A DNA stretch of 42,114 nt, taken from a virus (Duplodnaviria > Heunggongvirae > Uroviricota > Caudoviricetes). The notes beneath the pieces were generated by a model. It did not search any database and was not told the DNA's origin. It worked only from the letters and a program-made list of their open reading frames with translations. Where the stretch lies: IMG/VR virus record IMGVR_UViG_2875703104_000005. One strand, given 5' to 3'. A program made the translations under genes and the position numbers. Shown here one piece after another: positions 1,450 to 39,736 of the stretch. How positions within the stretch are numbered: position 1 is the first letter of the stretch; every line of letters begins with the position of its first letter.

Positions 1450-2096
1450 GCAGCACGCTCCCGCCCCTGGTTGTCTGTTGGTGACAGCGGAGAATTGCTG
1501 AATGCATTTGTTAATCCGCCAATATCCAACGCGTATCCAGGGTGTAGTTGCACTGCCGAGTCTTCGCACTGATTACCCCAAACATCGAAGCCATGAGACG
1601 ACTGGCGGGCGAACAGTTCAATGCGAGAAACATCGCCTAACAATTGCACAAGTTTTTCACGAACGACATCTGGTTTTCTTGAGTGCTCAAGCCGCGGTGC
1701 GGTAAATGACTGAACGATCCCTGCATTAATGCGCGGAGGTAGTTTTCCCTTTACCGCAAACAGGCAATCTTCACTATTGGCGCGAGTCATGTGTCCCATA
1801 CCCATAACCAGTTTATCTGGTTGTCGACTACCACATTTTATCCACGTGAAGCCCTTCATGGTCATAAGACGAAATCCCCAGGCTTCAACAACTTTTAGTG
1901 CTTCGAGTGGTTGTGTTGGCACCCACCACATGGCCAACAGACAGTTTTCAGCGGCCAAATCCCACACAGGAAGGCGGCAGATATCCAGCACACTCATAAC
2001 TGGATATTTAAAACCGGCACCGCGATTACCATCTGCGGCTTTGTCCCGGTATACCCATGGTGGATCTGCATAGATTAGCGTGTATTTCTTAGTCAT
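1446..2096 (-). CDS. DNA N6-adenine methyltransferase, MT-A70-like
   Basis: 216-aa ORF with the DPPW catalytic motif (LIYADPPWVY) near the N-terminus, typical of MT-A70/phage Dam-like methyltransferases. Confidence 0.75.
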   Translation of the reverse strand: MTKKYTLIYADPPWVYRDKAADGNRGAGFKYPVMSVLDICRLPVWDLAAENCLLAMWWVPTQPLEALKVVEAWGFRLMTMKGFTWIKCGSRQPDKLVMGMGHMTRANSEDCLFAVKGKLPPRINAGIVQSFTAPRLEHSRKPDVVREKLVQLLGDVSRIELFARQSSHGFDVWGNQCEDSAVQLHPGYALDIGGLTNAFSNSPLSPTDNQGRERAA

Positions 2097-2388
2097 AAAC
2101 CACCCCGCAACATCCTATACCGCTATAGTCTCCACGGCGAAGGCCGTTACCTTTTGTGATACATTGGTCCCTGCGAACCGCGATCCTTGCACGCTCAACA
2201 TCACCAGAAGCAACATCCATACACTGAAGCCAAAGGTGGGCGGCAATGCGGAACTGCCCTTTTTTCTCTCTTTCAATCGCGCGTTTTTCGAACTCTATCG
2301 CCGCAGGAGTAACGGCGATAACCTTTGAAGGACGGCGCATTGAAACCTTGTTCATGTGATATTTTTCAAGTCGGCTTAACTTTCTCAC
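2089..2388 (-). CDS. Hypothetical protein
   Basis: 99-aa ORF in the minus-strand early operon between the AlpA-like and methyltransferase genes; start codon uncertain (GTG at 2388 or internal ATG). Confidence 0.35.
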   Translation of the reverse strand: MRKLSRLEKYHMNKVSMRRPSKVIAVTPAAIEFEKRAIEREKKGQFRIAAHLWLQCMDVASGDVERARIAVRRDQCITKGNGLRRGDYSGIGCCGVVYD

Positions 2389-5006: not shown

Positions 5007-5086
5007 AACTTGTTACCTCGGTCTGTTACCGTTGAGGTAATAATTATGCGTATTTGGTTTGATGTCAATAGATATGAGTTAAAAAA

Positions 5087-8166: not shown

Positions 8167-8511
8167 ATGAGAAAACAGATACAGGCTCTTGGTCGACTCA
8201 AAACAGGCCAGATGAACAAAACAGAATCTGTGTATTGCCAGCACCTTGAGCTGCGTAAACGTGCAGGGGAAATCGCCTGGTATCGATTCGAGGGTATCAA
8301 GCTGCGGTTAGCTGATAACACGTTCTATACGCCAGATTTCGCTGTGATGCTCGCCACCGGAGAGATGGAACTGCACGAAGTGAAAGGTTTCTGGACCGAC
8401 GACGCCAGGGTGAAAACCAAAGTCGCCGCAGATCAATATCCGTTCCGAATCATCGGGGTAACTGTTAAGCCAAAGAAAGCAGGTGGCGGATGGAAAATCG
8501 AAGAGTTCTGA
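8167..8511 (+). CDS. Putative PD-(D/E)XK-type nuclease (DUF1064-like)
   Basis: 114 aa; YTPDF ... ELHEVKG resembles a D-x(n)-E-x-K nuclease core; preceded by two operator-like palindromes. Confidence 0.45.
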   Translation: MRKQIQALGRLKTGQMNKTESVYCQHLELRKRAGEIAWYRFEGIKLRLADNTFYTPDFAVMLATGEMELHEVKGFWTDDARVKTKVAADQYPFRIIGVTVKPKKAGGGWKIEEF

Positions 8512-9893: not shown

Positions 9894-10076
9894 ATGCGAA
9901 AATTCAAAATAATTATTGAAACGGGAATAGCCGGTGGAGATTTCGAGGATGAATTCGAAGTGGATGATGATGCAACACCAGATGAAATACAGGATGAAGC
10001 TAAAGATATTTTCTTTAACTACTGCAATTACTCATACCACGAAATAAAAGACGAAGAGGAAGAACAAAATGGCTGA
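9894..10076 (+). CDS. Small acidic hypothetical protein
   Basis: 60 aa, very acidic C-terminus; follows a 213-bp noncoding gap. Confidence 0.4.
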   Translation: MRKFKIIIETGIAGGDFEDEFEVDDDATPDEIQDEAKDIFFNYCNYSYHEIKDEEEEQNG

Positions 10077-10245
10077 TTTTGGTTCAACTAAATATAACGC
10101 CAGTTTTGAAGAATGGCATGAACTGTTAATGGATTATGCAGAGTTACGCGGTGGAAGTGCCGCTGATGCTGAAGCATGGCGTGATGATTATGAAGCAGGG
10201 AAAACACCGGTCGAAGCATATTGTGATGAGTGGGGCGATGAATGA
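10069..10245 (+). CDS. Small protein (58 aa), C-terminal 34 aa shared with the 10602-10829 product
   Basis: Not in the ORF track; ATG 10069 overlaps the upstream stop. Its 3' part lies inside the first copy of the tandem duplication. Confidence 0.4.
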   Translation: MADFGSTKYNASFEEWHELLMDYAELRGGSAADAEAWRDDYEAGKTPVEAYCDEWGDE

Positions 10246-10601
10246 GCGAGATTAATTATCAGGAAGGGCATGAAAAGGTAGGGCAGGCAAAACCAGTGGC
10301 ATGGCGATATCGCTACGTGAAAAAAGGCGTTACAGACTTTCAGGGGAAGCAGTGGGTTGGTGACTGGAAATATGTCCCGACAAAAGAGGATTGTAACGAC
10401 AGACCAAACTATGAAATTCAGGCGTTATTCACGGCCCCGCCAGCTTCGGTGACATCAGAAGGACTGGTTAAAGCTGTGCGCTTTTATGAACAGGTACGGC
10501 GTGAGGATCCGCCAGTTGAAACCGGAGCATGGAAAGACGCTATTGACTGGGTACTCAAGGAGGCCTGCCTGGTTGTAAACACGGGCATCAAAGGAGGCTG
10601 A
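10242..10601 (+). CDS. Hypothetical protein, paralog A
   Basis: 119 aa; first about 78 residues identical to the 10826-11185 product, C-terminal part diverged. Confidence 0.55.
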   Translation: MSEINYQEGHEKVGQAKPVAWRYRYVKKGVTDFQGKQWVGDWKYVPTKEDCNDRPNYEIQALFTAPPASVTSEGLVKAVRFYEQVRREDPPVETGAWKDAIDWVLKEACLVVNTGIKGG

Positions 10602-10829
10602 ATGGGTATTGCCGCAAGTTATACCATGCATCTCTATTGTGATTGCCGCCAGTGTACGGATGGCAAATATCAGTCGCCAGATTTTGGTGAGTATATCGGT
10701 ACGTCATGGGCTGGCTGTGCAACAGAGTTACGCGGTGGAAGTGCCGCTGATGCTGAAGCATGGCGTGATGATTATGAAGCAGGGAAAACACCGGTCGAAG
10801 CATATTGTGATGAGTGGGGCGATGAATGA
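10602..10829 (+). CDS. Small Cys-rich protein (75 aa), chimeric across the duplication junction
   Basis: Strong AAGGAGG RBS; N-terminus unique (CDCRQC), C-terminal 34 aa identical to the 10069-10245 product. Confidence 0.45.
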   Translation: MGIAASYTMHLYCDCRQCTDGKYQSPDFGEYIGTSWAGCATELRGGSAADAEAWRDDYEAGKTPVEAYCDEWGDE

Positions 10830-11185
10830 GCGAGATTAATTATCAGGAAGGGCATGAAAAGGTAGGGCAGGCAAAACCAGTGGCATGGCGATATCGCTAC
10901 GTGAAAAAAGGCGTTACAGACTTTCAGGGGAAGCAGTGGGTTGGTGACTGGAAATATGTCCCGACAAAAGAGGATTGTAACGACAGACCAAACTATGAAA
11001 TTCAGGCGTTATTCACGGCCCCGCCAGCTTCGGTGACATCAGAAGGACTGGTTAAAGCAGTACGCTTCTATGAACAGGTAAAGCGCGAGAATCCGCCAGT
11101 CGAAACCGGAGCATGGAAAGACGCGGTTGACTGGGTGCTCAAAGAGGCTTGCCAGGCTGTAAACATTGGTACCAAAGGAGATTGA
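10826..11185 (+). CDS. Hypothetical protein, paralog B
   Basis: 119 aa; lies in the second copy of the tandem duplication. Confidence 0.55.
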   Translation: MSEINYQEGHEKVGQAKPVAWRYRYVKKGVTDFQGKQWVGDWKYVPTKEDCNDRPNYEIQALFTAPPASVTSEGLVKAVRFYEQVKRENPPVETGAWKDAVDWVLKEACQAVNIGTKGD

Positions 11186-11186
11186 T

Positions 11187-11960
11187 ATGAGCACTTTTAC
11201 CGACAAAGAACTGATTAAAGAAATCAAAGAGCGCATAGGCAGCCTGGACGTGAGAGACAATATTGAGCGCCGGGCTTATGAAATAGCGTTAGCCTCGCTG
11301 GAAGCAGAACCGGTGGCGTGGATGCGTGATGACGCAGATGGTCGTGAGTATAACGCTCGCAATGAATTTTCTGGTGGAGGGGGAGGAGTTCCACTCTACG
11401 CCACCCCTCCAGTGCCAGTAGTACCGGAAGAAAAACCAATGCCTAATCCTCTTAGCATGTACGCGGTTGATGCTGTTGCCGCTATTGCAGAGGTGAGAGG
11501 CTGGAACGCCTGCCGCGCCGCCATGCTTCATGGTGCCGAACCTGCAAGTAATCATGAAGAGTTGCCACTTGATTATCTCCAAGGTCAAAAAGATGGTCTT
11601 GAATGGGCTGCGCAGCTTGCAGAAGCAAATCACCCACAAACTGGCGACTGGCTTTACGATGACCCGCTGGAGCTGGCTAAAGCTATCAGAAAAGGTCCTG
11701 ACATGCCCGAATTCGATGGACCAACTCCGGTAACTCTGGATGGTTGGATAAGCTGTAGTGAGCGAATGCCTGAGAACATTCCCGGAAGTTGTAAAGAGTA
11801 TCTGGTGTTTGATGGGCTTAATAATAAAGTTCATCACGATTACTGGGTTGTCCCTGATGGAGACAGTGCGCCAGTTGCGTCGTTCTGGAATCATTACGGG
11901 GCACATGTAACTCACTGGATGCCTCTACCAGAACCGCCGAAGGAGGTTAACCGTGGCTAA
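11187..11960 (+). CDS. DUF551-like nin-region protein
   Basis: C-terminal THWMPLPEPP motif characteristic of DUF551 phage proteins; start set at ATG 11187 with AAAGGAG RBS. Confidence 0.5.
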   Translation: MSTFTDKELIKEIKERIGSLDVRDNIERRAYEIALASLEAEPVAWMRDDADGREYNARNEFSGGGGGVPLYATPPVPVVPEEKPMPNPLSMYAVDAVAAIAEVRGWNACRAAMLHGAEPASNHEELPLDYLQGQKDGLEWAAQLAEANHPQTGDWLYDDPLELAKAIRKGPDMPEFDGPTPVTLDGWISCSERMPENIPGSCKEYLVFDGLNNKVHHDYWVVPDGDSAPVASFWNHYGAHVTHWMPLPEPPKEVNRG

Positions 11961-12234
11961 CCTGCAACTTGCCGTTAAAGGTGAATACTTCGATGCCATG
12001 ATTCGCGGGGAGAAAACGGAAGAGTATCGCCTGTGTAATGACTACTGGAATAAGCGCCTCGTTAACCGTAAGTATTACCGCCTGATTATCACAAAGGGAT
12101 ATCCGAAGCGCGAAGACTTCAGTCGCAGAATTGACGTCCCGTATAACGGATATGAAATAAAGACAATCACACATCCGCACTTCGGTGATAAACCGGTAAA
12201 GGTGTTCGCGATAAAGGTAAATATTGATGGCTAA
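11953..12234 (+). CDS. Small hypothetical protein, possibly ASCH/DUF3850-like
   Basis: 93 aa; GTG start with AAGGAGG RBS; fold assignment is tentative. Confidence 0.4.
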   Translation: MANLQLAVKGEYFDAMIRGEKTEEYRLCNDYWNKRLVNRKYYRLIITKGYPKREDFSRRIDVPYNGYEIKTITHPHFGDKPVKVFAIKVNIDG

Positions 12235-12565
12235 ATCAGCAGCAGAGCGCAAAGCCGCTCAGAGAGCCAGACAAGCTGCATCTGGTGTGCGTAAGCTGGA
12301 GATTGTGCTTGATGCTCAGGAAATTGAAATTCTGGAGCGTAACTGTGCCACGCGTCGCCCCGGGCGTGCGCCTTACGAATTTGGTGAGTATATAGCGTTA
12401 CTGATCCGCCAGGATGATGCACGCGTGCACGGGCGTATAAAATCGATCAGCAGAACACGTTGCGGTAAGTGCGGCGAGAGAGTTCCAGTTAATTCATGTC
12501 CGTGTAATGGTGACTCACAATGCTGGGTGACTAAAGGCTGGCATGAAACGAAATTAATAGTGTGA
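12227..12565 (+). CDS. Zinc-finger protein in the Q position (candidate late-gene regulator)
   Basis: Basic N-terminus and C-terminal CGKCG ... CPC cluster; last early-region gene, directly followed by a 14-mer repeat, a terminator, and an operator-like site before the terminase genes. Confidence 0.4.
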   Translation: MAKSAAERKAAQRARQAASGVRKLEIVLDAQEIEILERNCATRRPGRAPYEFGEYIALLIRQDDARVHGRIKSISRTRCGKCGERVPVNSCPCNGDSQCWVTKGWHETKLIV

Positions 12566-12574
12566 CATGTCACG
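12561..12574. repeat. 14-mer TGTGACATGTCACG, copy 1
   Basis: Overlaps the stop of the zinc-finger gene, 40 bp upstream of the terminator that precedes the terminase genes. Confidence 0.6.
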
Positions 12575-12614
12575 AGTAGATTATGCATGATGAATTTGAT
12601 GGATTTTGAATACT

Positions 12615-12640
12615 GCCGCCAACTATGGCGGCTTTATTTT
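12615..12640 (+). terminator. Intrinsic terminator between the early/nin region and the terminase genes
   Basis: Stem GCCGCC/GGCGGC, loop AACTAT, then TTTATTTT. Confidence 0.65.
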
Positions 12641-12650
12641 GCATGGTATT

Positions 12651-12667
12651 ATTACCACAACGGTAAC
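12651..12667. promoter_or_regulatory. Operator-like palindrome ATTACC-ACAAC-GGTAAC upstream of the terminase genes
   Basis: Between the 12615-12640 terminator and the terminase small-subunit start; a further ATTACC half-site follows at 12669-12674. Confidence 0.5.
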
Positions 12668-12683
12668 AATTACCACGGTAGTT

Positions 12684-13280
12684 ATGATGCCTGCTGAACC
12701 TAAAACCTATAAACGCAAATCAACGCAATTTAAGCCGCTCACAGCAATGCAGGAGGCTTATTGCCAGTCATACATCAAAACGCCTGAAAACCAGACTCAG
12801 GCTGCGATTAACGCAGGATTCTCCCCAAATACAGCGGCAGTTAAAGCCAGTGTCATGATGCGCGATGAACGCATTCAGAAACGGATTGCCGAGTTGATGG
12901 AGGAGCGCAACAAACGAATGCGTGTCAGTGCTGATTACGTTCTCATGCGCCTGGTGGAGATCGACCAGATGGACGTGATCGACATCCTCAACGACGATGG
13001 GAGCCTTAAACCAATCCGTGAGTGGCCGAAAATCTGGCGCACTACGCTTAGTGGCTTTGATCTGTCATCGACCATCATGAACATGAACGAGGATTCAATA
13101 GAGACAATCCTCAAAAAAATTAAATGGCCTGACAAGGTGAAGAACCTTGAGCTGATTGGTAAGCATGTTGATGTCAACGCATTCAAAGAACGTCTGGATG
13201 TTAATGTGAATGTGACAATTGCTGATCGCATAGCAGCAGCCAGGAAGCGACTCAAAGAACGTCAGGATGGTAATCAGTGA
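12684..13280 (+). CDS. Terminase small subunit
   Basis: LTAMQEAYCQSYIKTPENQTQAAINAGFSPNTAAVKA matches the Terminase_2 HTH pattern. Start set at ATG 12684 because the ORF-track TTG start (12606) would include an intrinsic terminator hairpin. Confidence 0.65.
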   Translation: MMPAEPKTYKRKSTQFKPLTAMQEAYCQSYIKTPENQTQAAINAGFSPNTAAVKASVMMRDERIQKRIAELMEERNKRMRVSADYVLMRLVEIDQMDVIDILNDDGSLKPIREWPKIWRTTLSGFDLSSTIMNMNEDSIETILKKIKWPDKVKNLELIGKHVDVNAFKERLDVNVNVTIADRIAAARKRLKERQDGNQ

Positions 13281-14752
13281 CAGATACAGCGTTATCTCCT
13301 GAAGAGCAGTTAATCGAGGATATTGCAGGGTTCACTCACGATCCGCTTGGCTATGCCCTCTATGCGTTCCCGTGGGGGGAAGATGGGACTGAACTGGCAC
13401 ATGCCACCGGTCCACGTCAGTGGCAGGCTGATGCGTTCCGAGAGATACGTGATCACCTGCAGAATCCAGAGACGCGCTATCAGCCGCTTATGCTGGCACG
13501 CGCTTCGGGTCACGGTATTGGTAAATCCGCATTCATCTCAATGCTGATCAACTGGGGCATGTCCACTTGCGAGGATTGTAAGGTTGTGGTGACCGCCAAC
13601 ACCGACAACCAGCTACGAACGAAGACCTGGCCGGAAATTATCAAGTGGTCGAACCTTGCTATCACGAAAGACTGGTTTACCTGTACCGCTACCGCGATGT
13701 ACAGCAATGACCCTGGGCACGACAAGCGGTGGCGAGCTGACGCAATCCCCTGGTCTGAGCACAACACTGAGGCGTTCGCCGGACTACACAACGAGCGCAA
13801 ACGCATCATCGTGGTATTCGATGAAGCGTCGAACATTGCGGATCTGGTGTGGGAAGTTGCTGAGGGTGCGCTTACGGACGAAGACACTGAGATTATCTGG
13901 GTAGCGTTCGGAAACCCTACACGTAACACCGGGCGTTTCCGCGAATGTTTCCGCAAATATAAACACCGCTGGAAAACTGCGCAGATTGACAGCCGGACGG
14001 TGGAAGGCACTAACAAACAGCAGTTGCAGAAATGGGTTGATGACTACGGGGAAGATAGCGACTTCGTTAAAATCCGTGTGCGCGGCATATTCCCTGATGC
14101 ATCTGAATTGCAGTTTATCCCTACCGGTCTTACTGACGAGGCAATGAAACGGGTGGTAACCGCTGCGCAGGTTGCACATGCTCCGGTGATAATCGGCGTT
14201 GACCCGGCATACTCAGGCGTTGATGACGCTGTGATATACCTGCGGCAGGGGCTGCACAGTAAGGTGCTGTGGACTGGCAACAAGACCACTGACGATCTGA
14301 TTATGGCGAAGCGTATCGCTGACTTTGAAGACCAGTACCAGGCTGACGCAGTGTTCATCGACTTCGGTTACGGAACTGGTCTGAAGTCAATCGGTGACGG
14401 CTGGGGTCGTACATGGCAACTTGTTCCGTTCGGTGGCGCGTCTACTGACCCGCAGATGCTCAACAAGCGTGGGGAGATGTTCAACTCATGCAAGACATGG
14501 CTGAGGCTCGGCGGCATGCTGGATGACCAGGAAACAGCGGACGACCTGTCGGCAGCAGAGTACAAAGTTCGTGTGGACGGTAAAATCGTTATCGAACCGA
14601 AGGAAGATATCAAGGAGCGGCTTGGGCGTTCGCCGGGTAAAGGCGATGCGCTACTGCTGACGTTTGCTTTCCCTGTGTCGAAGCGTCTGCGAATTCCTGG
14701 GCAGCAGAACCAGCAAGGCAAAGCCATCACAGACTATGATCCTTTTGCATAA
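13277..14752 (+). CDS. Terminase large subunit
   Basis: 491 aa; ATPase region (LARASGHGIGKSAFI; VVFDEASNI) and C-terminal nuclease region; GTG start overlapping the small-subunit stop. Confidence 0.85.
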   Translation: MTDTALSPEEQLIEDIAGFTHDPLGYALYAFPWGEDGTELAHATGPRQWQADAFREIRDHLQNPETRYQPLMLARASGHGIGKSAFISMLINWGMSTCEDCKVVVTANTDNQLRTKTWPEIIKWSNLAITKDWFTCTATAMYSNDPGHDKRWRADAIPWSEHNTEAFAGLHNERKRIIVVFDEASNIADLVWEVAEGALTDEDTEIIWVAFGNPTRNTGRFRECFRKYKHRWKTAQIDSRTVEGTNKQQLQKWVDDYGEDSDFVKIRVRGIFPDASELQFIPTGLTDEAMKRVVTAAQVAHAPVIIGVDPAYSGVDDAVIYLRQGLHSKVLWTGNKTTDDLIMAKRIADFEDQYQADAVFIDFGYGTGLKSIGDGWGRTWQLVPFGGASTDPQMLNKRGEMFNSCKTWLRLGGMLDDQETADDLSAAEYKVRVDGKIVIEPKEDIKERLGRSPGKGDALLLTFAFPVSKRLRIPGQQNQQGKAITDYDPFA

Positions 14753-14775
14753 AAAAGCCCGCGAATCGGCGGGCT
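14751..14775 (-). terminator. Intrinsic terminator after the minus-strand moron
   Basis: Stem AGCCCGC/GCGGGCT followed on the minus strand by TTTTTT. Confidence 0.65.
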
Positions 14776-14778
14776 GAT

Positions 14779-14792
14779 TGTGACATGTCACG
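14779..14792. repeat. 14-mer TGTGACATGTCACG, copy 2
   Basis: Immediately 3' of the terminator hairpin that follows the terminase large-subunit gene. Confidence 0.6.
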
Positions 14793-14795
14793 GCG

Positions 14796-15218
14796 TTAGA
14801 AGGTTATTTTATCGAATGCGGCGTTGATTGCCTTGGCGTCCTGCTCAGCACCAACCACATCAAGTAAAGATCTTTTACTAAGCACTTCAGCCAGGCATTG
14901 TAACTTCATGTTGTATAAGTTTTCGCGCATGTAATCATCATCACTTTTTTCTTTGGCGTATACAGCGCGAGAAATATCAAACACATTGCCTTTTTCCATT
15001 TCAGTTTTCTGCGCTGAAATCCAGTCATGGCAAGTAACTCCTATTCCATGGTCATCGCTAAGCGTTAACCCGGCAAGTCGCTCACCTGGAATTGCTTCAC
15101 AAAGCATTTCATTTCCTGCAAAAACACCATAAAAAATTGAGTCATCACCCTGAACAATGCGTACATATTTGCACGGCCATTCATTTAGATATTTAGCTAG
15201 CATGTCGGCTGTTTTCAT
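14796..15218 (-). CDS. Hypothetical moron protein, antisense insert between terminase and portal
   Basis: 140 aa; AAGGTGAG RBS; intrinsic terminators on both sides; opposite strand to the flanking late genes. Confidence 0.5.
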   Translation of the reverse strand: MKTADMLAKYLNEWPCKYVRIVQGDDSIFYGVFAGNEMLCEAIPGERLAGLTLSDDHGIGVTCHDWISAQKTEMEKGNVFDISRAVYAKEKSDDDYMRENLYNMKLQCLAEVLSKRSLLDVVGAEQDAKAINAAFDKITF

Positions 15219-15230
15219 GATCTCACCTTA

Positions 15231-15253
15231 AAAAAATGCCCGGCGAACCGGGC
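15231..15253 (-). terminator. Intrinsic terminator downstream of the tRNA-Arg
   Basis: Stem GCCCGG/CCGGGC, loop, then ATTTTTT on the minus strand, immediately before the moron RBS. Confidence 0.6.
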
Positions 15254-15416
15254 GAACTGGAAGCAATGAGTTATGCCTTCCGTGGCTGTACTGGTTTACA
15301 GCATGAAGTCATCGCAATGGCGTCCTGCTGTAAAAAGGGCGGTGATAGTCCTTCAAGGGAAACCATCACCGCCAAGCCCCTGGAACTTCTGGCATCACGG
15401 TCCTTAGGCGTGATTC

Positions 15417-15493
15417 TGGCGTGGCATGCAGGATTCGAACCTGCGACCAACCGCTTAGAAGGCGGTTGCTCTGTCCAACTGAGCTAATGCCAC
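15417..15493 (-). tRNA. tRNA-Arg (anticodon UCU), phage-borne
   Basis: 77-nt cloverleaf read directly: acceptor GTGGCAT/ATGCCAC, D-arm GCTC AGTTGGACA GAGC, anticodon loop CTTCTAA, T-arm GCAGG TTCGAAT CCTGC, discriminator G, CCA. Closely resembles enterobacterial argU-type tRNA. Confidence 0.8.
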
Positions 15494-15814
15494 AACGCTG
15501 AGAGCACTTAGCCTGTTAAGGCGCCACACTTTGTCGCGGCTCCATAAATGCTCTCATCGTTGTACCCTCGTCTCTTCCGAGGCGTCACACCGAATCGCCG
15601 GGATGGTGAATCCCCGTGCGCGGAATAAAACCGCTCGACTTGCACATTCCGGCTACCTGGTTCGTTTGCCACAGCCAGGGAGGGTGCCCCTTAAACGCAT
15701 CCAGACCGCTATCGGCGCATGTGCCATACGCCGTACTGCTCAAAATAAAAGCTCACTCCACCTGTTCAATTTAACGACAAGCCAGTCAGGTTAGTAACCG
15801 GAATGAACTCTTTG

Positions 15815-15831
15815 GTTACCTGAAAGGTAAT
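15815..15831. promoter_or_regulatory. Operator-like palindrome GTTACC-TGAAA-GGTAAT upstream of the portal operon
   Basis: 90 bp upstream of the first structural-operon ATG; core identical to the site at 36382-36398. Confidence 0.5.
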
Positions 15832-15920
15832 AATTCGCACGTTAAATGTCAACTGTCTACGATAAATAAATCATATGTGGTTAAATTGGTAATAATTTAA
15901 TTGCGTACGGAGTCATTGAT

Positions 15921-16127
15921 ATGTGCATGGGTAGCTCACCATCAGTGCCTGCAACACCAGAAGTTCAGGCAGCACCACAGGAGCAGGATGCCGCCGTTGT
16001 TGATGCCCGCGACGAAGAAACTCGTCGCCGTCGCGCTGCTGCTGGTCGTAGTTCTACGCTGCTTACCGGTTCTCAGGGCGACACATCAACTGCTAATACC
16101 AGCGGTAAAACGCTGCTTGGTCAGTAA
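15921..16127 (+). CDS. Small virion-associated protein (T7 gp6.7-like by position and composition)
   Basis: 68 aa starting MC, low complexity, immediately upstream of the portal gene with GGAG RBS. Confidence 0.4.
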   Translation: MCMGSSPSVPATPEVQAAPQEQDAAVVDARDEETRRRRAAAGRSSTLLTGSQGDTSTANTSGKTLLGQ

Positions 16128-16141
16128 CCGGAGTCATTGAA

Positions 16142-17821
16142 ATGGCGGAAACAACTAAAGAGCGATTGAACAAACAGTTCGCACAACTTGAAAGCGAGCG
16201 TCAGTCGTTCGAGCCGCACTGGCGCGAGTTGAGTGATTACATCAACCCGCGTGGTTCCCGCTTTCTGACTTCTGAGGTTAACCGTAACGATCGACGCAAT
16301 ACACGCATTATTGATTCGACCGGGACTATGGCGGCGCGCACTCTCGCCAGCGGCATGATGTCAGGCATCACAAGCCCCGCGCGTCCGTGGTTTCGCCTGG
16401 CTACGCCAGATCCTGAAATGATGGATTATGGCCCTGTTAAGTTGTGGCTTGAGGCGGTGCAGAACCGCATGAACGATATGTTCAATAAGTCGAATCTCTA
16501 TCAGTCGCTGCCGCAGTTATACGGAAGCCTCGGCACATACAGCACTGGTGCAATGGCAGTGCTGGAGGATGACGAGGACATCATTCGCACAATGCCATTC
16601 CCGATAGGCAGTTACTACCTGGCTAACTCACCTCGTGGCAGTGTGGACACCTGTTTTCGCAAGTTCTCTATGACTGTTCGTCAGCTTGTTCAGGAGTTCG
16701 GGCTAAATAACGTCAGCGAATCCGTAAAAAGCATGTGGGAAAGCGGAACCTACGAGAAGTGGATTGAAGTGATGCATTCGGTTTACCCGAACATTGACCG
16801 CGATACATCGAAGCTGGATAGCAAGAACAAGCCATTCAAATCGGTTTATTACGAGGTTGGTGGCGATAACGACAAGTTGTTGCGTGAGTCCGGATTCGAT
16901 GAGTTTCCAATTATGGCTCCGCGCTGGGAAGTTAACGGCGAAGATGTTTATGGATCATCATGCCCGGGTATGCTGGCGCTTGGACCTGTTAAGGCATTGC
17001 AGCTTCTCCAGAAGCGCAAGTCGCAGTTGATTGATAAAGCCACCAATCCGCCGATGGTTGCTCCGACTTCCCTCAAGAATCAGCGTGCCTCCCTTCTTCC
17101 TGGCGACATCACGTATATCGATCAGATTACTGGTCAGGATGGTTTCAGGCCTGCTTATCTGGTTAACCCCAGTACAGCAGATTTGGTGGCAGACATTCAG
17201 GACACCCGTCAAATCATTAACAGCGCCTACTTTGTCGATCTGTTCATGATGTTGCAGAACATCAATACCCGCTCGATGCCTGTTGAAGCGGTGATCGAAA
17301 TGAAAGAAGAAAAACTTCTGATGTTGGGGCCGGTTCTGGAGCGTCTGAACGACGAATGTCTTAATCCTCTCATTGACCGCGCTTTCTCGATGATGGTGCG
17401 TAAAAACATGCTGCCGCCACCGCCTGACGCGATGGAAGGTATGCCCCTGAAGGTCGAATACATTTCCGTCATGGCTCAGGCGCAGAAGTCTATCGGCCTG
17501 TCCAGTCTGGCGTCTACGGTCAACTTCATTGGTCAACTTGCGCAAGCGAAACCAGAAGCTCTCGACAAACTCAACGTTGATCAGGCGATCGATGCATTCG
17601 CTGATATGTCCGGAGTGTCTCCAACCGTCATTGTTCCGCAGGAACAGGTTGAGCAGGCTCGCCAGCAACGGGCACAGCAACAACAGCAGCAACAAATGAT
17701 GGCGATGGGGATGGCGGCGGCACAGGGTGCCAAGACGCTAAGCGAAGCTAAAACTTCGGATCCGAGTGTTTTGTCAGCTATGGCGAATGCAGTTAGTGGT
17801 CAGGGTGGGCAATCACAATGA
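16142..17821 (+). CDS. Portal (head-to-tail connector) protein
   Basis: 559 aa; Gln/Ala/Met-rich C-terminus (QQQQQQMMAMGMAAAQGA) resembles podovirus gp8-type portals; sits between terminase and scaffold/capsid. Confidence 0.75.
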   Translation: MAETTKERLNKQFAQLESERQSFEPHWRELSDYINPRGSRFLTSEVNRNDRRNTRIIDSTGTMAARTLASGMMSGITSPARPWFRLATPDPEMMDYGPVKLWLEAVQNRMNDMFNKSNLYQSLPQLYGSLGTYSTGAMAVLEDDEDIIRTMPFPIGSYYLANSPRGSVDTCFRKFSMTVRQLVQEFGLNNVSESVKSMWESGTYEKWIEVMHSVYPNIDRDTSKLDSKNKPFKSVYYEVGGDNDKLLRESGFDEFPIMAPRWEVNGEDVYGSSCPGMLALGPVKALQLLQKRKSQLIDKATNPPMVAPTSLKNQRASLLPGDITYIDQITGQDGFRPAYLVNPSTADLVADIQDTRQIINSAYFVDLFMMLQNINTRSMPVEAVIEMKEEKLLMLGPVLERLNDECLNPLIDRAFSMMVRKNMLPPPPDAMEGMPLKVEYISVMAQAQKSIGLSSLASTVNFIGQLAQAKPEALDKLNVDQAIDAFADMSGVSPTVIVPQEQVEQARQQRAQQQQQQQMMAMGMAAAQGAKTLSEAKTSDPSVLSAMANAVSGQGGQSQ

Positions 17822-35002: not shown

Positions 35003-35024
35003 AAACAAGGCCGCGAAAGCGGCC
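35001..35024 (-). terminator. Intrinsic terminator after the AntA-type gene
   Basis: Stem GGCCGC/GCGGCC, loop GAAA, then TTGTTTTT on the minus strand. Confidence 0.55.
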
Positions 35025-35038
35025 TGTGACATGTCACG
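35025..35038. repeat. 14-mer TGTGACATGTCACG, copy 3
   Basis: Immediately 3' (plus strand) of the hairpin that terminates the AntA-type gene. Confidence 0.6.
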
Positions 35039-35047
35039 ATAGTTTCG

Positions 35048-35316
35048 TTTTGCACGTCCCTGTGCCGCCGCCGTCAGAAGAACCCTGCCTTGTCGTTGAT
35101 GTACTCCGCGTGGGTCTGGATATCACGCAGGCATTTGCTCACACCGACGATGTAGCAGAACATGGTGGTCAGCTCCGCCGCCGCGCCCGATACGTCGTGC
35201 CCGTCTTCCTGTAACTGGTTCAGCAGATTCATCAGCAGTGAGTTCTCCGTCAGGCCGAGAACACCCGACGGCGAGTGAATCAGACTGCGGTAGCCGGGCT
35301 TCAGTGGGGCACTGTA
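35048..35316. repeat. Inverted repeat, anti-repressor C-terminal domain, right arm
   Basis: Reverse complement of 33721-33990 with about two mismatches. Confidence 0.8.
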
Positions 35317-35730
35317 TTCTTTTTTGTCTTCCAGCTTGATCGCCTCCATAATGGCGGGCATGAAGCCTGACAAGACCTTCTCCACCTTTGTTTCTTGTTG
35401 TCTTAAACGTTTCTCGCATTCAATGAAGTATCGGCGTATCTGGCGGCCTTTTTCGTTGCGCTCGACCATCGCAGTTTCTTTGGCCGTATCGAGGGTGAGG
35501 TGATAGTCTTTGCTACGGCGATCGCCTCCTCGACCTTTGATTTCCCGATTTGGGGAAACCAAAATATAGTCCTGATTTTCAACGAAACCATATTCAGCAA
35601 TGCGTTCTGTAATCCACGATGCAAAGCGTTTACCTACCCCAAGAAAAGTATGTAAATCGCGAGCATTAACGAGAAGAGTGGTTTCGTTGGCGATAGTGCC
35701 GTTGAATACGGGGATGAGTTGAGCGTTCAT
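35074..35730 (-). CDS. Anti-repressor, AntA-type N-terminal domain with shared C-terminal domain
   Basis: 218 aa; AntA-like N-terminus (LIPVFNGTIANETTLLVNARDLHTFLGVGKRFASWI); C-terminal 80 aa identical to the Bro-N paralog; GGAG RBS. Confidence 0.7.
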   Translation of the reverse strand: MNAQLIPVFNGTIANETTLLVNARDLHTFLGVGKRFASWITERIAEYGFVENQDYILVSPNREIKGRGGDRRSKDYHLTLDTAKETAMVERNEKGRQIRRYFIECEKRLRQQETKVEKVLSGFMPAIMEAIKLEDKKEYSAPLKPGYRSLIHSPSGVLGLTENSLLMNLLNQLQEDGHDVSGAAAELTTMFCYIVGVSKCLRDIQTHAEYINDKAGFF

Positions 35731-36000: not shown

Positions 36001-36017
36001 TTTACCGCAAAGGTAAA
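36001..36017. promoter_or_regulatory. Operator-like palindrome TTTACC-GCAAA-GGTAAA at the start of the right anti-repressor leader
   Basis: Mirror copy of the 32984-33000 site, in the right-arm leader driving the minus-strand AntA-type gene. Confidence 0.5.
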
Positions 36018-39441: not shown

Positions 39442-39736
39442 GTTTTTTTTGCTTATCACCAATGCAGTTATTTGTACTGGCATAGCAATTCGCGTTGTCA
39501 CATTCCGGCGTAACGGCTCTCAACATCGAAGATGGGGAGGGTGGCTTGCTTATTTCCTTATTGTTGCTGCGGCAAGTATTCCTGTTCGTGTCGTCTATGC
39601 AATCTGGTTACGCACGCCAATGGCTGTGGATTTATCTGAGGTCATTATCAACGCTGTCATGCTTGCCGCGGTTATTAAAACACGCGGTAACGTTGTTCAT
39701 ATTTTCAAAATATCGAGGTCTAAACATGGAGATTAA
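39428..39736 (+). CDS. Second small membrane protein (holin / antiholin-like)
   Basis: 102 aa, three hydrophobic segments, GGGGAG RBS, overlaps the endolysin start. Confidence 0.45.
   Translation: MVTHEFFLLITNAVICTGIAIRVVTFRRNGSQHRRWGGWLAYFLIVAAASIPVRVVYAIWLRTPMAVDLSEVIINAVMLAAVIKTRGNVVHIFKISRSKHGD

What the first reader, a model, noticed from the sequence alone, without database searches (positions are those of the whole stretch)
12227..12683. Candidate late-control region: zinc-finger protein, 14-mer, terminator and operator-like site ahead of the terminase genes
The last early-region gene encodes a basic 113-aa protein with a Cys cluster in the position lambda Q occupies. It is followed in order by a 14-mer copy, a good intrinsic terminator (12615-12640) and an operator-like palindrome (12651-12667), then the terminase small-subunit start. 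The arrangement suggests regulated entry into late transcription, but by a mechanism not obviously Q/qut-like.
Basis: inference. Interest (0 to 1): 0.5.

Follow-up and report, generated by a model that had tools for sequence, protein, structure and literature searches.

The report
Early–late gene junction of ε15-like prophage
This is the boundary between the early and the packaging genes of an ε15/phiV10-type prophage: a terminator, then a promoter guarded by the prophage repressor's operator, preceded by a small uncharacterised DNA-binding protein gene that carries what looks like its own binding site on its stop codon in many unrelated phages.

Summary
All four features are at the stated coordinates and none is a chance match. 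The window is an ε15/phiV10-like (Uetakevirus) prophage.

- **Terminator:** 12615-12640 ends the early-right operon. It is annotated at the same place in ε15.
- **Operator-like palindrome:** 12651-12667 is one of about 13 copies of ATTACC-N5-GGTAAT. ε15's RefSeq record labels these as prophage-repressor sites. This copy overlaps a conserved extended -10 (TGgTATTAT), so terS probably has its own repressor-controlled promoter.
- **Protein:** it belongs to PHROG 536 (ε15 gp49 / N15 gp46). It has a basic N-terminus, a possible ribbon-helix-helix core and a conserved Cys4 cluster. It has no Q homology.
- **14-mer:** it overlaps the gene's stop codon. Its core GTGAC-NN-GTCAC lies at or near the 3' end of this gene family in ε15-like, lambdoid, ZF40, Pantoea AH07, N15-like and Mu-like phages. 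In a P2-like clade it lies 0.5-4.5 kb downstream.

Five of these phage types carry their own Q, Ogr-like or Mor/C-type late regulator. Three Mu-like genomes that lack the gene also lack the site.

The Q-like reading is therefore only partly supported. The protein most likely binds the palindrome as a dimer. A boundary or roadblock role is my inference and is untested. The new element is the conserved gene-plus-site module.

The parts
12227..12565 (+). Last early-right gene: 112-aa member of PHROG 536 (ε15 gp49 / N15 gp46 family). Basic N-terminal helix, possible ribbon-helix-helix core, conserved Cys4 C-terminus.
   Evidence: phrog_536 E 3.3e-53. No Pfam hit above threshold. 715 clusters of relatives, all named hypothetical. 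Conserved columns. AF2 monomer pLDDT 70.6 with helices at 5-18, 30-43 and 52-75.
12561..12574 (.). Site 1: 14-mer TGTGACATGTCACG (core palindrome 12562-12573) overlapping the TGA stop of the gene. Probable cognate DNA site of the gp49-family protein.
   Evidence: Same position relative to the stop in ε15, TL-2011b, PAS61, PAT1, Omnitron, Klebsiella and Enterobacter relatives, in 75 of 80 close IMG/VR relatives, in N15-like loci 49/49 and in Pantoea AH07. It lies 2-6 nt after the stop in ZF40 and Chlobot.
12615..12640 (+). Intrinsic terminator ending the early-right operon.
   Evidence: The orthologous stem-loop is annotated as a rho-independent terminator in ε15 RefSeq at 39646-39672.
12644..12652 (+). 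Extended -10 element TGgTATTAT of the inferred terS promoter. There is no good -35, which would fall inside the terminator.
   Evidence: Read from the sequence. Conserved as TGgTAyTAT / TGtTACTAT in TL-2011b, PAS61, ε15, PAT1 and Klebsiella Kp4865-1. A -10-like hexamer starts 4 nt before the operator in 8 of 13 operators, in the direction of the downstream gene. Promoter activity is inferred, not shown.
12651..12667 (.). Operator O1 of the prophage repressor (ATTACC-N5-GGTAAT family).
   Evidence: 16 matches against 1.09 expected. The ε15 orthologue at 12-27 is annotated protein_bind 'repressor; lysogeny'. Present directly upstream of terS in all Uetakevirus relatives examined.
12669..12685 (.). 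Degenerate second operator O2 (ATTACCACGGTAGTTAT, 2 mismatches), 18 bp from O1, overlapping the terS start codon.
   Evidence: Better conserved in PAS61 (…GGTTAT) and ε15 (ATTACTTCGGTGGTAAC). Function inferred.
12684..13280 (+). Terminase small subunit (start at ATG 12684 or 12687). The longer TTG-12606 ORF would run through the terminator.
   Evidence: Pfam Terminase_2 E 1e-29. phrog_51. ε15 annotation.
14756..14792 (.). Site 2: hairpin 14756-14775 (minus-strand terminator of ORF 15218..14796) followed by the 14-mer at 14779-14792, directly after the terL stop (14752).
   Evidence: Hairpin plus palindrome are conserved, with changes on both stem arms, in seven relatives, while the neighbouring minus-strand gene differs.
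35009..35038 (.). Site 3: hairpin 35009-35024 followed by the 14-mer at 35025-35038, between the stop of the minus-strand antirepressor gene ant (35074-35730) and its terminator.
   Evidence: Ant identified by AntA Pfam E 3.6e-27. ε15 has the same palindrome-plus-hairpin module in the opposite orientation after gp18.

Best explanation
**Junction.** The region is the junction between the early-right operon and the packaging operon of an ε15/phiV10-type temperate phage. Early transcripts end at the intrinsic terminator 12615-12640. The terminase operon then starts from its own promoter: an extended -10 (TGgTATTAT) overlapped by operator O1 of the prophage repressor, with a weaker O2 over the terS start. 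The repressor therefore shuts packaging genes off directly in the lysogen. Similar operator-plus--10 units precede the tailspike operon and several other genes, and an operator also precedes the portal operon.

**Protein and site.** The last early gene encodes a small dimeric DNA-binding protein of the ε15 gp49 / N15 gp46 family. Its cognate site is the palindrome (T)GTGAC-NN-GTCAC(A), placed on its own stop codon and at two further operon ends (after terL; after the structural/cargo block next to ant).

**Mechanism (inferred).** Once made, the protein occupies these palindromes. I think it most likely acts as a boundary or roadblock element that limits transcription running across operon ends. 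In other phages it would limit transcription through early genes that carry internal sites. It is not a Q-type late activator.

**Shown or strongly supported:** the anatomy, the identity of the operator family, family membership, and the gene-site linkage.
**Inferred:** promoter activity, protein-site binding, and the roadblock effect.

**Sub-probabilities:** junction, terminator and repressor operator about 0.9; the protein binds the palindrome about 0.75; the boundary/roadblock function about 0.35.
For: **Identity of the phage.** 96% DNA identity to PAS61, O157 typing phages 9 and 10 and TL-2011b.

**Operator and terminator.**
- ε15 RefSeq annotates both at the orthologous places.
- The operator motif has 16 matches against 1.09 expected, at the immunity region and ahead of late operons.
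- TGgTAyTAT plus the operator is conserved right before terS even in a Klebsiella relative that has no terminator there.
- The -10/operator geometry recurs at 8 of 13 operators.

**Protein.**
- phrog_536 at E 3e-53.
- Weak but concordant ribbon-helix-helix hints: YbfE E 0.07; RHH_5, RepB-RCR_reg and RHH_1 at E 0.01-0.07.
- Invariant basic residues R8 and R13, and an invariant Cys set.

**Gene-site linkage.**
- GTGACNNGTCAC gives 3 matches against 0.02 expected in the window and is present in 196 of 204 loci held.
- It overlaps or abuts the stop codon in ε15-like, lambdoid, ZF40, AH07 and N15-like phages.
- In Mu-like phages it lies inside the 3' coding end, as the codons for VTGH.
- The arms are invariant and the central two bases vary freely (AT, AG, GT, TG, CT, CC, CA, CG, GG). 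That is the signature of a symmetric dimer on double-stranded DNA.
- Three Mu-like genomes without the gene have no site. The transposase genes of gene-positive phages carry sites that gene-negative relatives lack; at one position the relatives keep the amino acids (RDWS) without forming the palindrome.

**Boundary reading.**
- In the window and in ε15 the three sites mark the 3' ends of three successive rightward transcription units, next to terminator hairpins.
- P2-like phages carry an array of three sites 33-34 bp apart in non-coding DNA between two convergent terminators.
- In ZF40, Mu-like and N15-like phages the extra sites lie inside early genes (cII-like and gp08; transposase A; repA).
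Against: - No binding, transcription or expression data exist for this protein or these sites.
- The fold is not established. The AF2 monomer has pLDDT 70.6, and Foldseek against the PDB found nothing.
- The terS promoter has no recognisable -35, and the tool's two-hexamer scan did not call it.
- A roadblock at the protein's own 3' end would also shut off downstream genes. In N15-like phages and Chlobot those genes start immediately after the site, with GGAGG next to it. That makes sense only if their expression is meant to be transient.
- The order 'palindrome then terminator' rests on only three independent sites, so it is not statistically significant.
- ε15-type phages have no identified late activator. 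A late-control role specific to this genus therefore cannot be excluded.
Confidence: 0.55

Rival explanations
1. The Cys-cluster protein is a functional analogue of Q or N. It is loaded at the 14-mer and makes RNA polymerase read through the terminator at 12615-12640, and through the terminators next to sites 2 and 3, joining early, packaging and structural operons into a timed late transcript.
For: - The gene is the last early gene, and the site lies 41 nt (13 nt in ε15, 22 nt in Omnitron) upstream of a terminator.
- All three sites sit at ends of rightward operons.
- The N-terminus is an arginine-rich helix.
- The C-terminal Cys region aligns weakly (E 0.17) with the TraR/YbiI DksA-type zinc finger of proteins that bind RNA polymerase.
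- A promoter-like GTGACA-18-CATGAT overlaps site 1.
- No other late regulator is known in this genus.
Against: - There is no homology to any Q, N, Ogr or Mor family.
- The family coexists with Q, Ogr-like or Mor/C regulators in at least four other phage types.
- Site-terminator spacing is not conserved, and the terminator is missing in Klebsiella/Enterobacter relatives.
- terS has its own conserved operator and -10.
- In P2-like phages the site array lies downstream of the early terminator, in DNA between convergent terminators.
- The TraR-like second CxxC knuckle is absent.
- At sites 2 and 3 in this window, the terminators next to the palindrome serve minus-strand genes. Reading through them would produce antisense RNA.
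Confidence: 0.12
2. The protein is a conventional promoter regulator (repressor or activator). The palindromes are operators for nearby promoters, for example the SOS-type promoter that follows site 1 in Klebsiella relatives, or a promoter in the P2-like three-site array.
For: - In Kp4865-1, BUCT554 and ST11-OXA245phi3.2 the palindrome ends 6 nt before the -35 (TTGACT) of a promoter carrying a perfect LexA box.
- The P2-like array of three sites at 33-34 bp spacing looks like a cooperative operator.
- PHROG labels the family 'transcriptional regulator'.
Against: - In this window no convincing promoter adjoins any of the three sites.
- Many sites lie deep inside coding regions.
- The one constant position is the gene's own 3' end, not a promoter.
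Confidence: 0.15
3. The gene-plus-site pair works on DNA rather than on transcription. It would be a centromere-like, bridging or packaging/replication accessory system. The logic resembles ParB/parS or SopB/sopC, where the site lies in or just after the gene and a few further copies are dispersed.
For: - The site is at the gene's own 3' end in most lineages.
- The P2-like array sits in non-coding DNA about 230 bp from a GC-rich cos-like stretch.
- In Uetakeviruses sites 1 and 2 bracket terS-terL.
- Sites occur in the replication genes of N15 (repA) and Mu-like phages (transposase).
- That N15 is a plasmid prophage is my own knowledge.
Against: - There is no partner ATPase or other constant neighbour.
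- ε15-type, lambdoid, P2-like and Mu-like phages integrate and need no partition.
- There are only 1-4 sites per genome.
- Site positions relative to pac/cos are not consistent between lineages.
Confidence: 0.13
4. The palindrome acts as an RNA hairpin (UGUGA-CAUG-UCACG) in the 3' UTR. The protein would bind it to control translation of the next gene or formation of the adjacent terminator.
For: - It folds as a 5-bp stem with a tetraloop.
- It directly precedes the Shine-Dalgarno GGAGG of the next gene in N15-like phages and Chlobot and precedes terminator hairpins here.
- The arginine-rich N-terminus recalls the peptides that bind boxB RNA. This is a resemblance from memory and was not tested.
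Against: - The stem arms never covary. They are invariant in sequence across relatives at about 30% protein identity, while the would-be loop centre varies freely. This is the opposite of what a protein-bound RNA hairpin shows.
- The P2-like arrays lie between convergent terminators.
- The stem is very short.
Confidence: 0.05

Closest known systems
ε15 gp49 / N15 gp46 (PHROG 536), annotated 'transcriptional regulator' in RefSeq
   Same: A direct orthologue: 75% amino-acid identity to ε15 gp49. It is the same last-early-gene position, has the same palindrome on the stop codon, and is followed by the same terminator and repressor operator.
   Different: Nothing functional is known for any member. 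I found no paper on it, or on the palindrome, in the held library. The ε15 and SPC32H papers themselves are not held.
Lambda Q / qut / tR' late antitermination
   Same: A small regulator gene at the end of the early-right operon, a DNA site, then a terminator ahead of the late genes.
   Different: There is no sequence relationship. The site is not embedded in a demonstrable promoter with a promoter-proximal pause. The late operon has its own repressor-controlled promoter. The family coexists with genuine Q genes in N15 and ZF40.
Repressor (Rep, ε15 gp38 type) operators of ε15/SPC32H-type phages
   Same: The 12651-12667 palindrome matches the ATTACC-N5-GGTAAT family. It is orthologous to the ε15 site annotated as repressor-binding upstream of terS.
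   Different: Nothing material. The second, degenerate copy (12669-12685) and the overlap with an extended -10 are my reading and are not annotated.
Ribbon-helix-helix phage and plasmid regulators (Arc, Mnt, CopG, RepB-type, YbfE)
   Same: Small size, a basic N-terminal arm, a predicted strand-helix-helix core, a short palindromic target, and weak profile hits.
   Different: The hits are below every curated threshold. There is an added conserved Cys4 C-terminal module. The target sits at the gene's 3' end and inside other genes, rather than at the protein's own promoter.
Protein roadblocks to elongating RNA polymerase (LacI on an intragenic operator, CodY or CcpA in Bacillus). Recalled from general knowledge.
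   Same: A sequence-specific DNA-binding protein whose sites lie inside or at the ends of transcription units rather than at promoters.
   Different: This is an analogy only. No elongation block has been shown for this family.
ParB/parS and SopB/sopC centromere modules
   Same: The binding site is in or directly after the gene for the binding protein, with a few dispersed copies. N15 itself has dispersed Sop centromere palindromes (from memory).
   Different: There is no partner ATPase and no ParB fold. The hosts are integrating prophages.

Membership tests
PHROG 536 (ε15 gp49 / N15 gp46 family) | Full-length match to the family profile | tested here: met
   E 3.3e-53, residues 1-111 on profile positions 2-114 of 115. 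Identity is 75% to ε15 gp49 and 34% to N15 gp46.
PHROG 536 (ε15 gp49 / N15 gp46 family) | Conserved basic N-terminus and Cys cluster (C79, C82, C99 plus a fourth Cys) | tested here: met
   Alignments A2, A3 and A4.
Lambda-type Q antiterminators | Sequence membership in a Q family | tested here: not met
   No Pfam, NCBIfam or PHROG hit to any Q family. Genuine Q-like genes are present alongside family members in ZF40 and N15.
Lambda-type Q antiterminators | DNA site embedded in a late promoter, followed by a short terminated leader | tested here: inconclusive
   The terminator is present 41 nt downstream. The only promoter-like match is a 9/12 GTGACA-18-CATGAT overlapping the site. The spacing is 13 nt in ε15, and the terminator is absent in Klebsiella relatives.
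P2 Ogr/Delta zinc-finger late activators | Ogr/Delta-type Cys4 finger and sequence membership | tested here: not met
   No profile hit. The Cys spacing here is C-x2-C-x8-C-x1-C-x5-C. The P2-like phage carrying a family member also has a separate small regulator gene after gpD.
Ribbon-helix-helix superfamily | N-terminal beta strand followed by two helices, forming a dimer | tested here: inconclusive
   Sub-threshold hits: YbfE E 0.07; RHH_5 0.013; RepB-RCR_reg 0.028; RHH_1 0.071. The AF2 monomer shows helices 30-43 and 52-75 but no strand. A dimer could not be modelled here.
DksA/TraR C4 zinc finger | C-x2-C-x17-C-x2-C finger with a significant profile match | tested here: not met
   Best PDB profile hits are TraR and YbiI at E 0.17. 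The second CxxC knuckle is replaced by C-W-x-T.
ε15-type repressor operators (ATTACC-N5-GGTAAT) | Match to the motif and membership in the dispersed set that includes the immunity region | tested here: met
   One mismatch; 16 matches against 1.09 expected, including the flanks of the repressor gene at 5025, 5087 and 5799. The orthologue is annotated as a repressor site in ε15.
ε15-type repressor operators (ATTACC-N5-GGTAAT) | Bound by the prophage repressor | not testable with these tools
   This rests on the RefSeq annotation of ε15. The primary papers are not held.
Intrinsic (rho-independent) terminators | G+C-rich hairpin followed by a U-run | tested here: met
   A hairpin of 6 G-C pairs (7 pairs as folded) plus TTTATTTT. 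Conserved in E. coli and Salmonella relatives.
ParB/parS-type centromere modules | Partner NTPase gene next to the DNA-binding protein gene | tested here: not met
   No constant neighbour in any of the seven genomic contexts inspected.

The most novel reading that the evidence does not exclude
The gp49/N15-gp46 family and its GTGAC-NN-GTCAC site form a previously unrecognised, self-contained 'gene plus boundary site' module of temperate enterobacterial phages. A protein made at the end of the early operon would bind palindromes placed at operon ends or inside early genes. It would thereby set transcript boundaries, either by blocking read-through or by licensing it. In ε15-type phages this would time the hand-over from early to packaging and structural operons, and would supply the late-control step that has not been identified in this genus.
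Probability: 0.2. Interest if true: 0.75.

Novelty: new variant of a known kind. Interest (0 to 1): 0.45.

Why it matters
How ε15/phiV10-type phages time their late genes has not, to my knowledge, been worked out. These phages are used as reporter and biocontrol phages for E. coli O157 and Salmonella.

The evidence points to late operons that each carry a repressor operator on their own promoter, rather than a single Q-type switch.

Separately, a small protein family now has a precise candidate DNA target. The family has about 200 clusters at 50% identity and is spread over ε15-like, lambdoid, ZF40, N15-like, P2-like and Mu-like phages. The target is invariant across the family and physically tied to the gene. 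That turns a 'hypothetical protein' into a directly testable regulator. It also gives annotators a simple marker (GTGACNNGTCAC at the stop codon) for this module and for operon ends.

Tried and rejected
- **Structure:** Foldseek of the AF2 model against the PDB gave nothing below E = 1. The monomer model has only moderate confidence, so I make no fold assignment.
- **Solved structures by sequence:** phmmer against PDB sequences found nothing. The profile search gave only TraR/YbiI at E 0.17, which I keep as a lead, not a result.
- **RNA families:** Rfam on 12000-16200 found only the tRNA and sub-threshold noise.
- **Defence systems:** PADLOC models gave no hit for this protein, its neighbours or distant family members.
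- **Literature:**
  - The ZX5 paper concerns the repressor, antirepressor and integrase, not this gene.
  - Searches for gp49, N15 gp46 and the palindrome sequence found nothing relevant.
  - 'gp46' in the lysogen proteome of telomere phage NAR688 turned out to be the cB repressor, not this family.
  - The ε15 genome paper and both SPC32H Rep/Ant papers are not held.
- **Host-factor sites:** I considered CRP (TGTGA-N6-TCACA), LexA (CTG-N10-CAG) and LacI-type operators for the palindrome and rejected them. The spacing or sequence does not fit, and the site tracks the phage gene.
- **Promoter at site 1:** only a 9/12 match, not conserved.
- **One seed for distant relatives:** P0259 found nothing in the viral contig collection.
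Full report
**What the window is.** The stretch 11900-13300 is 96% identical to Escherichia phages PAS61, O157 typing phages 9 and 10 and TL-2011b. It is about 84% identical to Salmonella ε15-type phages, which belong to the genus Uetakevirus. The finding therefore lies in an ε15/phiV10-like temperate podovirus. ORF 12684-13280 is the small terminase subunit (Pfam Terminase_2, E 1e-29) and 13277-14752 is the large subunit. Upstream lie a DUF551 protein and a 93-aa ORF with a weak, sub-threshold ASCH match (PHROG 625), both typical accessory early genes.

**Checking the observation.**
- The ORF is 112 aa from ATG 12227.
- The 14-mer TGTGACATGTCACG is at 12561-12574. It overlaps the TGA stop rather than following the gene. 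Its only other copies are at 14779 and 35025, in the same orientation.
- Its core is a perfect 12-bp palindrome. GTGACNNGTCAC occurs 3 times against 0.02 expected.
- The terminator (GCCGCC-loop-GGCGGC, then TTTATTTT, 12615-12640) is found by the scan and by folding.
- The palindrome at 12651-12667 matches ATTACC-N5-GGTAAT with one mismatch. That motif has 16 matches at up to two mismatches against 1.09 expected.

**The operator-like site belongs to the prophage repressor.** The RefSeq record of ε15 annotates 'protein_bind: repressor; lysogeny' in these places:
- at 12-27, directly upstream of terS;
- upstream of the portal operon;
- upstream of the tailspike gene;
- three times next to the repressor gene gp38;
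- once in the replication region.

The window's copies lie at the same kinds of place. They are at 5025 and 5087, 5799, 6184, 8086 and 8148, 12651 (plus a degenerate copy at 12669), 15815, 32983, 34035, 36001 and 36382.

At the clearest early promoter the geometry is explicit. The leftward promoter is TTGACA-17-AATTAT, and the -10 runs into the operator at 5025. A -10-like hexamer that starts 4 nt before the operator recurs at 8 of 13 operators, in the direction of the downstream gene. At terS this hexamer is TATTAT preceded by TG, which makes an extended -10 (12644-12652). It is conserved as TGgTAyTAT or TGtTACTAT in TL-2011b, PAS61, ε15 and PAT1. It is also conserved in Klebsiella phage Kp4865-1, where no terminator precedes it.

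I therefore read 12644-12685 as a repressor-controlled promoter for the packaging operon. A second, weaker operator lies over the terS start codon. Promoter activity and repressor binding are inferred from sequence and from the ε15 annotation. The primary papers were not available.

**The terminator.** ε15 RefSeq annotates the orthologous stem-loop as a rho-independent terminator after gp49. It ends the early-right operon. It is present in the E. coli and Salmonella relatives, and Citrobacter phage Omnitron has an unrelated hairpin 22 nt after the palindrome. In Klebsiella and Enterobacter relatives a promoter with a perfect LexA box and a 109-aa ORF occupy this place instead.

**The protein.**
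- It matches PHROG 536 at E 3e-53. It has no Pfam or NCBIfam assignment.
- It is the orthologue of ε15 gp49, which RefSeq notes as similar to N15 gp46.
- The family is small. A profile search of 1.84 billion representative proteins finds 207 clusters at E ≤ 0.001.
- Across relatives down to about 30% identity, the conserved features are a basic N-terminal segment (R8 and R13 invariant; K9, Q12 and Q16 conserved among closer relatives), a hydrophobic strand-like stretch, two helices containing R43, Y50 and E54, and a Cys cluster.
- Weak hits point to a ribbon-helix-helix core: YbfE at E 0.07; RHH_5, RepB-RCR_reg and RHH_1 at E 0.01-0.07.
- The Cys region aligns at E 0.17 with the TraR/YbiI zinc finger but lacks the second CxxC.
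- The AF2 monomer has moderate confidence, and the fold search was uninformative.
- 'Basic protein with a Cys cluster' is therefore confirmed. 'Zinc finger' is plausible. 'Ribbon-helix-helix' is unproven.

**The 14-mer travels with the gene.** This is the main new result. The palindrome GTGAC-NN-GTCAC sits at or next to the stop codon of the family gene in very different phages:

| Phage or clade | Position of the site |
|---|---|
| ε15 | overlaps the stop; two further copies, after terL and at the gp18 stop |
| All Uetakevirus relatives examined | overlaps the stop |
| Close IMG/VR relatives | overlaps the stop in 75 of 80 |
| Lambdoid phage Chlobot (gene lies near xis/int) | 6 nt after the stop |
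| Pectobacterium myovirus ZF40 | 2 nt after the stop; two more identical TGTGACATGTCACA copies inside gp08 and the cII-like gene |
| Pantoea phage AH07 | overlaps the stop |
| N15 and N15-like loci | overlaps the stop in 49 of 49; a second copy in repA |
| Mu-like phages | inside the 3' coding end, where GTG ACC GGT CAC encodes VTGH; further copies inside the transposase gene |
| P2-like Yersinia clade | 0.5-4.5 kb downstream, as an array of three sites spaced 33-34 bp, in non-coding DNA between convergent terminators and near a GC-rich cos-like stretch |

Overall, 196 of the 204 loci held contain the motif.

The five-base arms never change, while the two central bases take nine different values. 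A symmetric dimer reading double-stranded DNA produces that pattern. A protein-bound RNA hairpin produces the opposite pattern, with covarying stems and a conserved loop.

As a control I examined three complete Mu-like genomes. Their transposases are about 50% identical to those of gene-positive Mu-like loci, but they lack a family gene, and they contain no site at all. At one of the two transposase positions the gene-negative relatives keep the amino acids (RDWS) without forming the palindrome.

**Why the Q-like reading is weak.**
- The family coexists with dedicated late regulators: a Q-like protein in ZF40, Q (gene 40) in N15, a small regulator ORF after gpD in the P2-like phage, and a Mor/C-type activator two genes downstream in the Mu-like loci.
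- The spacing between site and terminator varies, and the terminator can be absent.
- The only promoter-like match at site 1 is 9/12 and is not conserved.
- terS has its own operator and -10.
- The terminator hairpins next to sites 2 and 3 in this window serve minus-strand genes: an unknown 140-aa ORF and the antirepressor Ant.

**What the protein-site pair may do.** In the window and in ε15 the three sites mark the ends of three successive rightward transcription units: the early-right operon, terS-terL, and the structural/cargo block. Each site lies beside a hairpin. The palindrome-plus-hairpin module at site 3 is inverted between ε15 and this window.

In other lineages the extra sites lie inside early genes or between convergent operons. 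The reading that fits most of these placements is a DNA-bound boundary or roadblock: it would limit transcription across operon ends and, in other phages, through early operons once the protein has accumulated. I give this about 0.35.

The alternatives are listed with their evidence under rival explanations: antitermination 0.12, ordinary promoter control 0.15, a DNA-organising, packaging or centromere-like role 0.13, an RNA element 0.05. None can be settled without experiments.

**Comparison with what is known, and verdict.** The terminator, the repressor operator and the gene are already annotated in ε15, so that part of the region is ordinary. The conserved gene-plus-site module is, as far as the held literature shows, undescribed. 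That makes the finding a new variant of a known kind, namely a small phage DNA-binding regulator with a palindromic target. Its unusual features are that the site sits on the gene's own stop codon and that the half-sites are invariant across the family. Interest is moderate.

Noticed in passing
window 15417-15493 (-): A tRNA-Arg (anticodon TCT) gene lies between terL and the portal operon, on the minus strand, in the same variable block as the 140-aa minus-strand ORF 14796-15218. The operator at 15815 has its best promoter-like match on the minus strand (TAGACA-18-AATTAT), pointing towards this block.
   Followed up: partly
window 10069-11185: A tandem duplication of about 584 bp. There are two nearly identical 119-aa ORFs (10242-10601 and 10826-11185). 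The C-terminal part of the 58-aa ORF 10069-10245 is repeated in 10602-10829.
   Followed up: no
window 35074-35730 (-): An antirepressor gene (AntA domain, E 3.6e-27; phrog_377). Palindrome copy 3 lies between its stop codon and its terminator. Repressor operators at 36001 and 36382 lie upstream.
   Followed up: partly
L091 3790-3860, L093 and L094 3790-3870 (Klebsiella/Enterobacter Uetakeviruses): Between palindrome copy 1 and terS these relatives carry a promoter with a perfect LexA box (CTGT-N8-ACAG over the -10) and a 109-aa ORF annotated UmuD-like, which has no Pfam hit. The window keeps only a short relic (GCATGAT) of this insert.
   Followed up: partly
L151 10850-10930 and the other P2-like loci L144-L180: An array of three related sites (GTGACATGGCAC, GTGACATGTCAC, TGTGACTGACACA) spaced 33-34 bp apart. 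The left flank is conserved and the right flank is variable. The array lies about 230 bp from a GC-rich cos-like stretch and between two convergent terminators. The distance from the family gene varies from 0.5 to 4.5 kb, because cargo of different sizes is inserted.
   Followed up: partly
L182 687-698 and 1128-1139 (Mu-like transposase gene): Two palindrome copies 441 bp apart lie inside the transposase coding sequence (ICDQS and RDWSQ). Gene-negative Mu-like relatives have no palindrome at either position. At the second they keep RDW(S); at the first their residues differ.
   Followed up: yes
window 5025/5087 and 8086/8148: Two pairs of repressor operators are each exactly 62 bp apart. In each pair one operator overlaps a promoter's -10 or spacer. 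The second pair lies ahead of ORF 8167-8511, after the replication genes.
   Followed up: partly
window 12606-13280 versus L002 12387-13061: The PAS61 record annotates terS from the upstream TTG, which gives 224 aa. That start would place the terminator and both operators inside the coding sequence. The ε15 start, equivalent to ATG 12684, is more plausible.
   Followed up: partly
window 2089-2388 (-): A PerC-family transcriptional activator (Pfam PerC E 5.6e-7; phrog_868) lies in the early-left operon. It is the orthologue of ε15 gp31 and is another candidate regulator that has not been studied.
   Followed up: no
L003 5861-6339 (phage Chlobot): The family gene is annotated as two pieces ('UmuD-like protein' and a 141-bp 'transcriptional regulator'), although tblastn aligns residues 20-112 in one piece. 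This is probably a mis-annotation or a frameshift near the 5' end.
   Followed up: no
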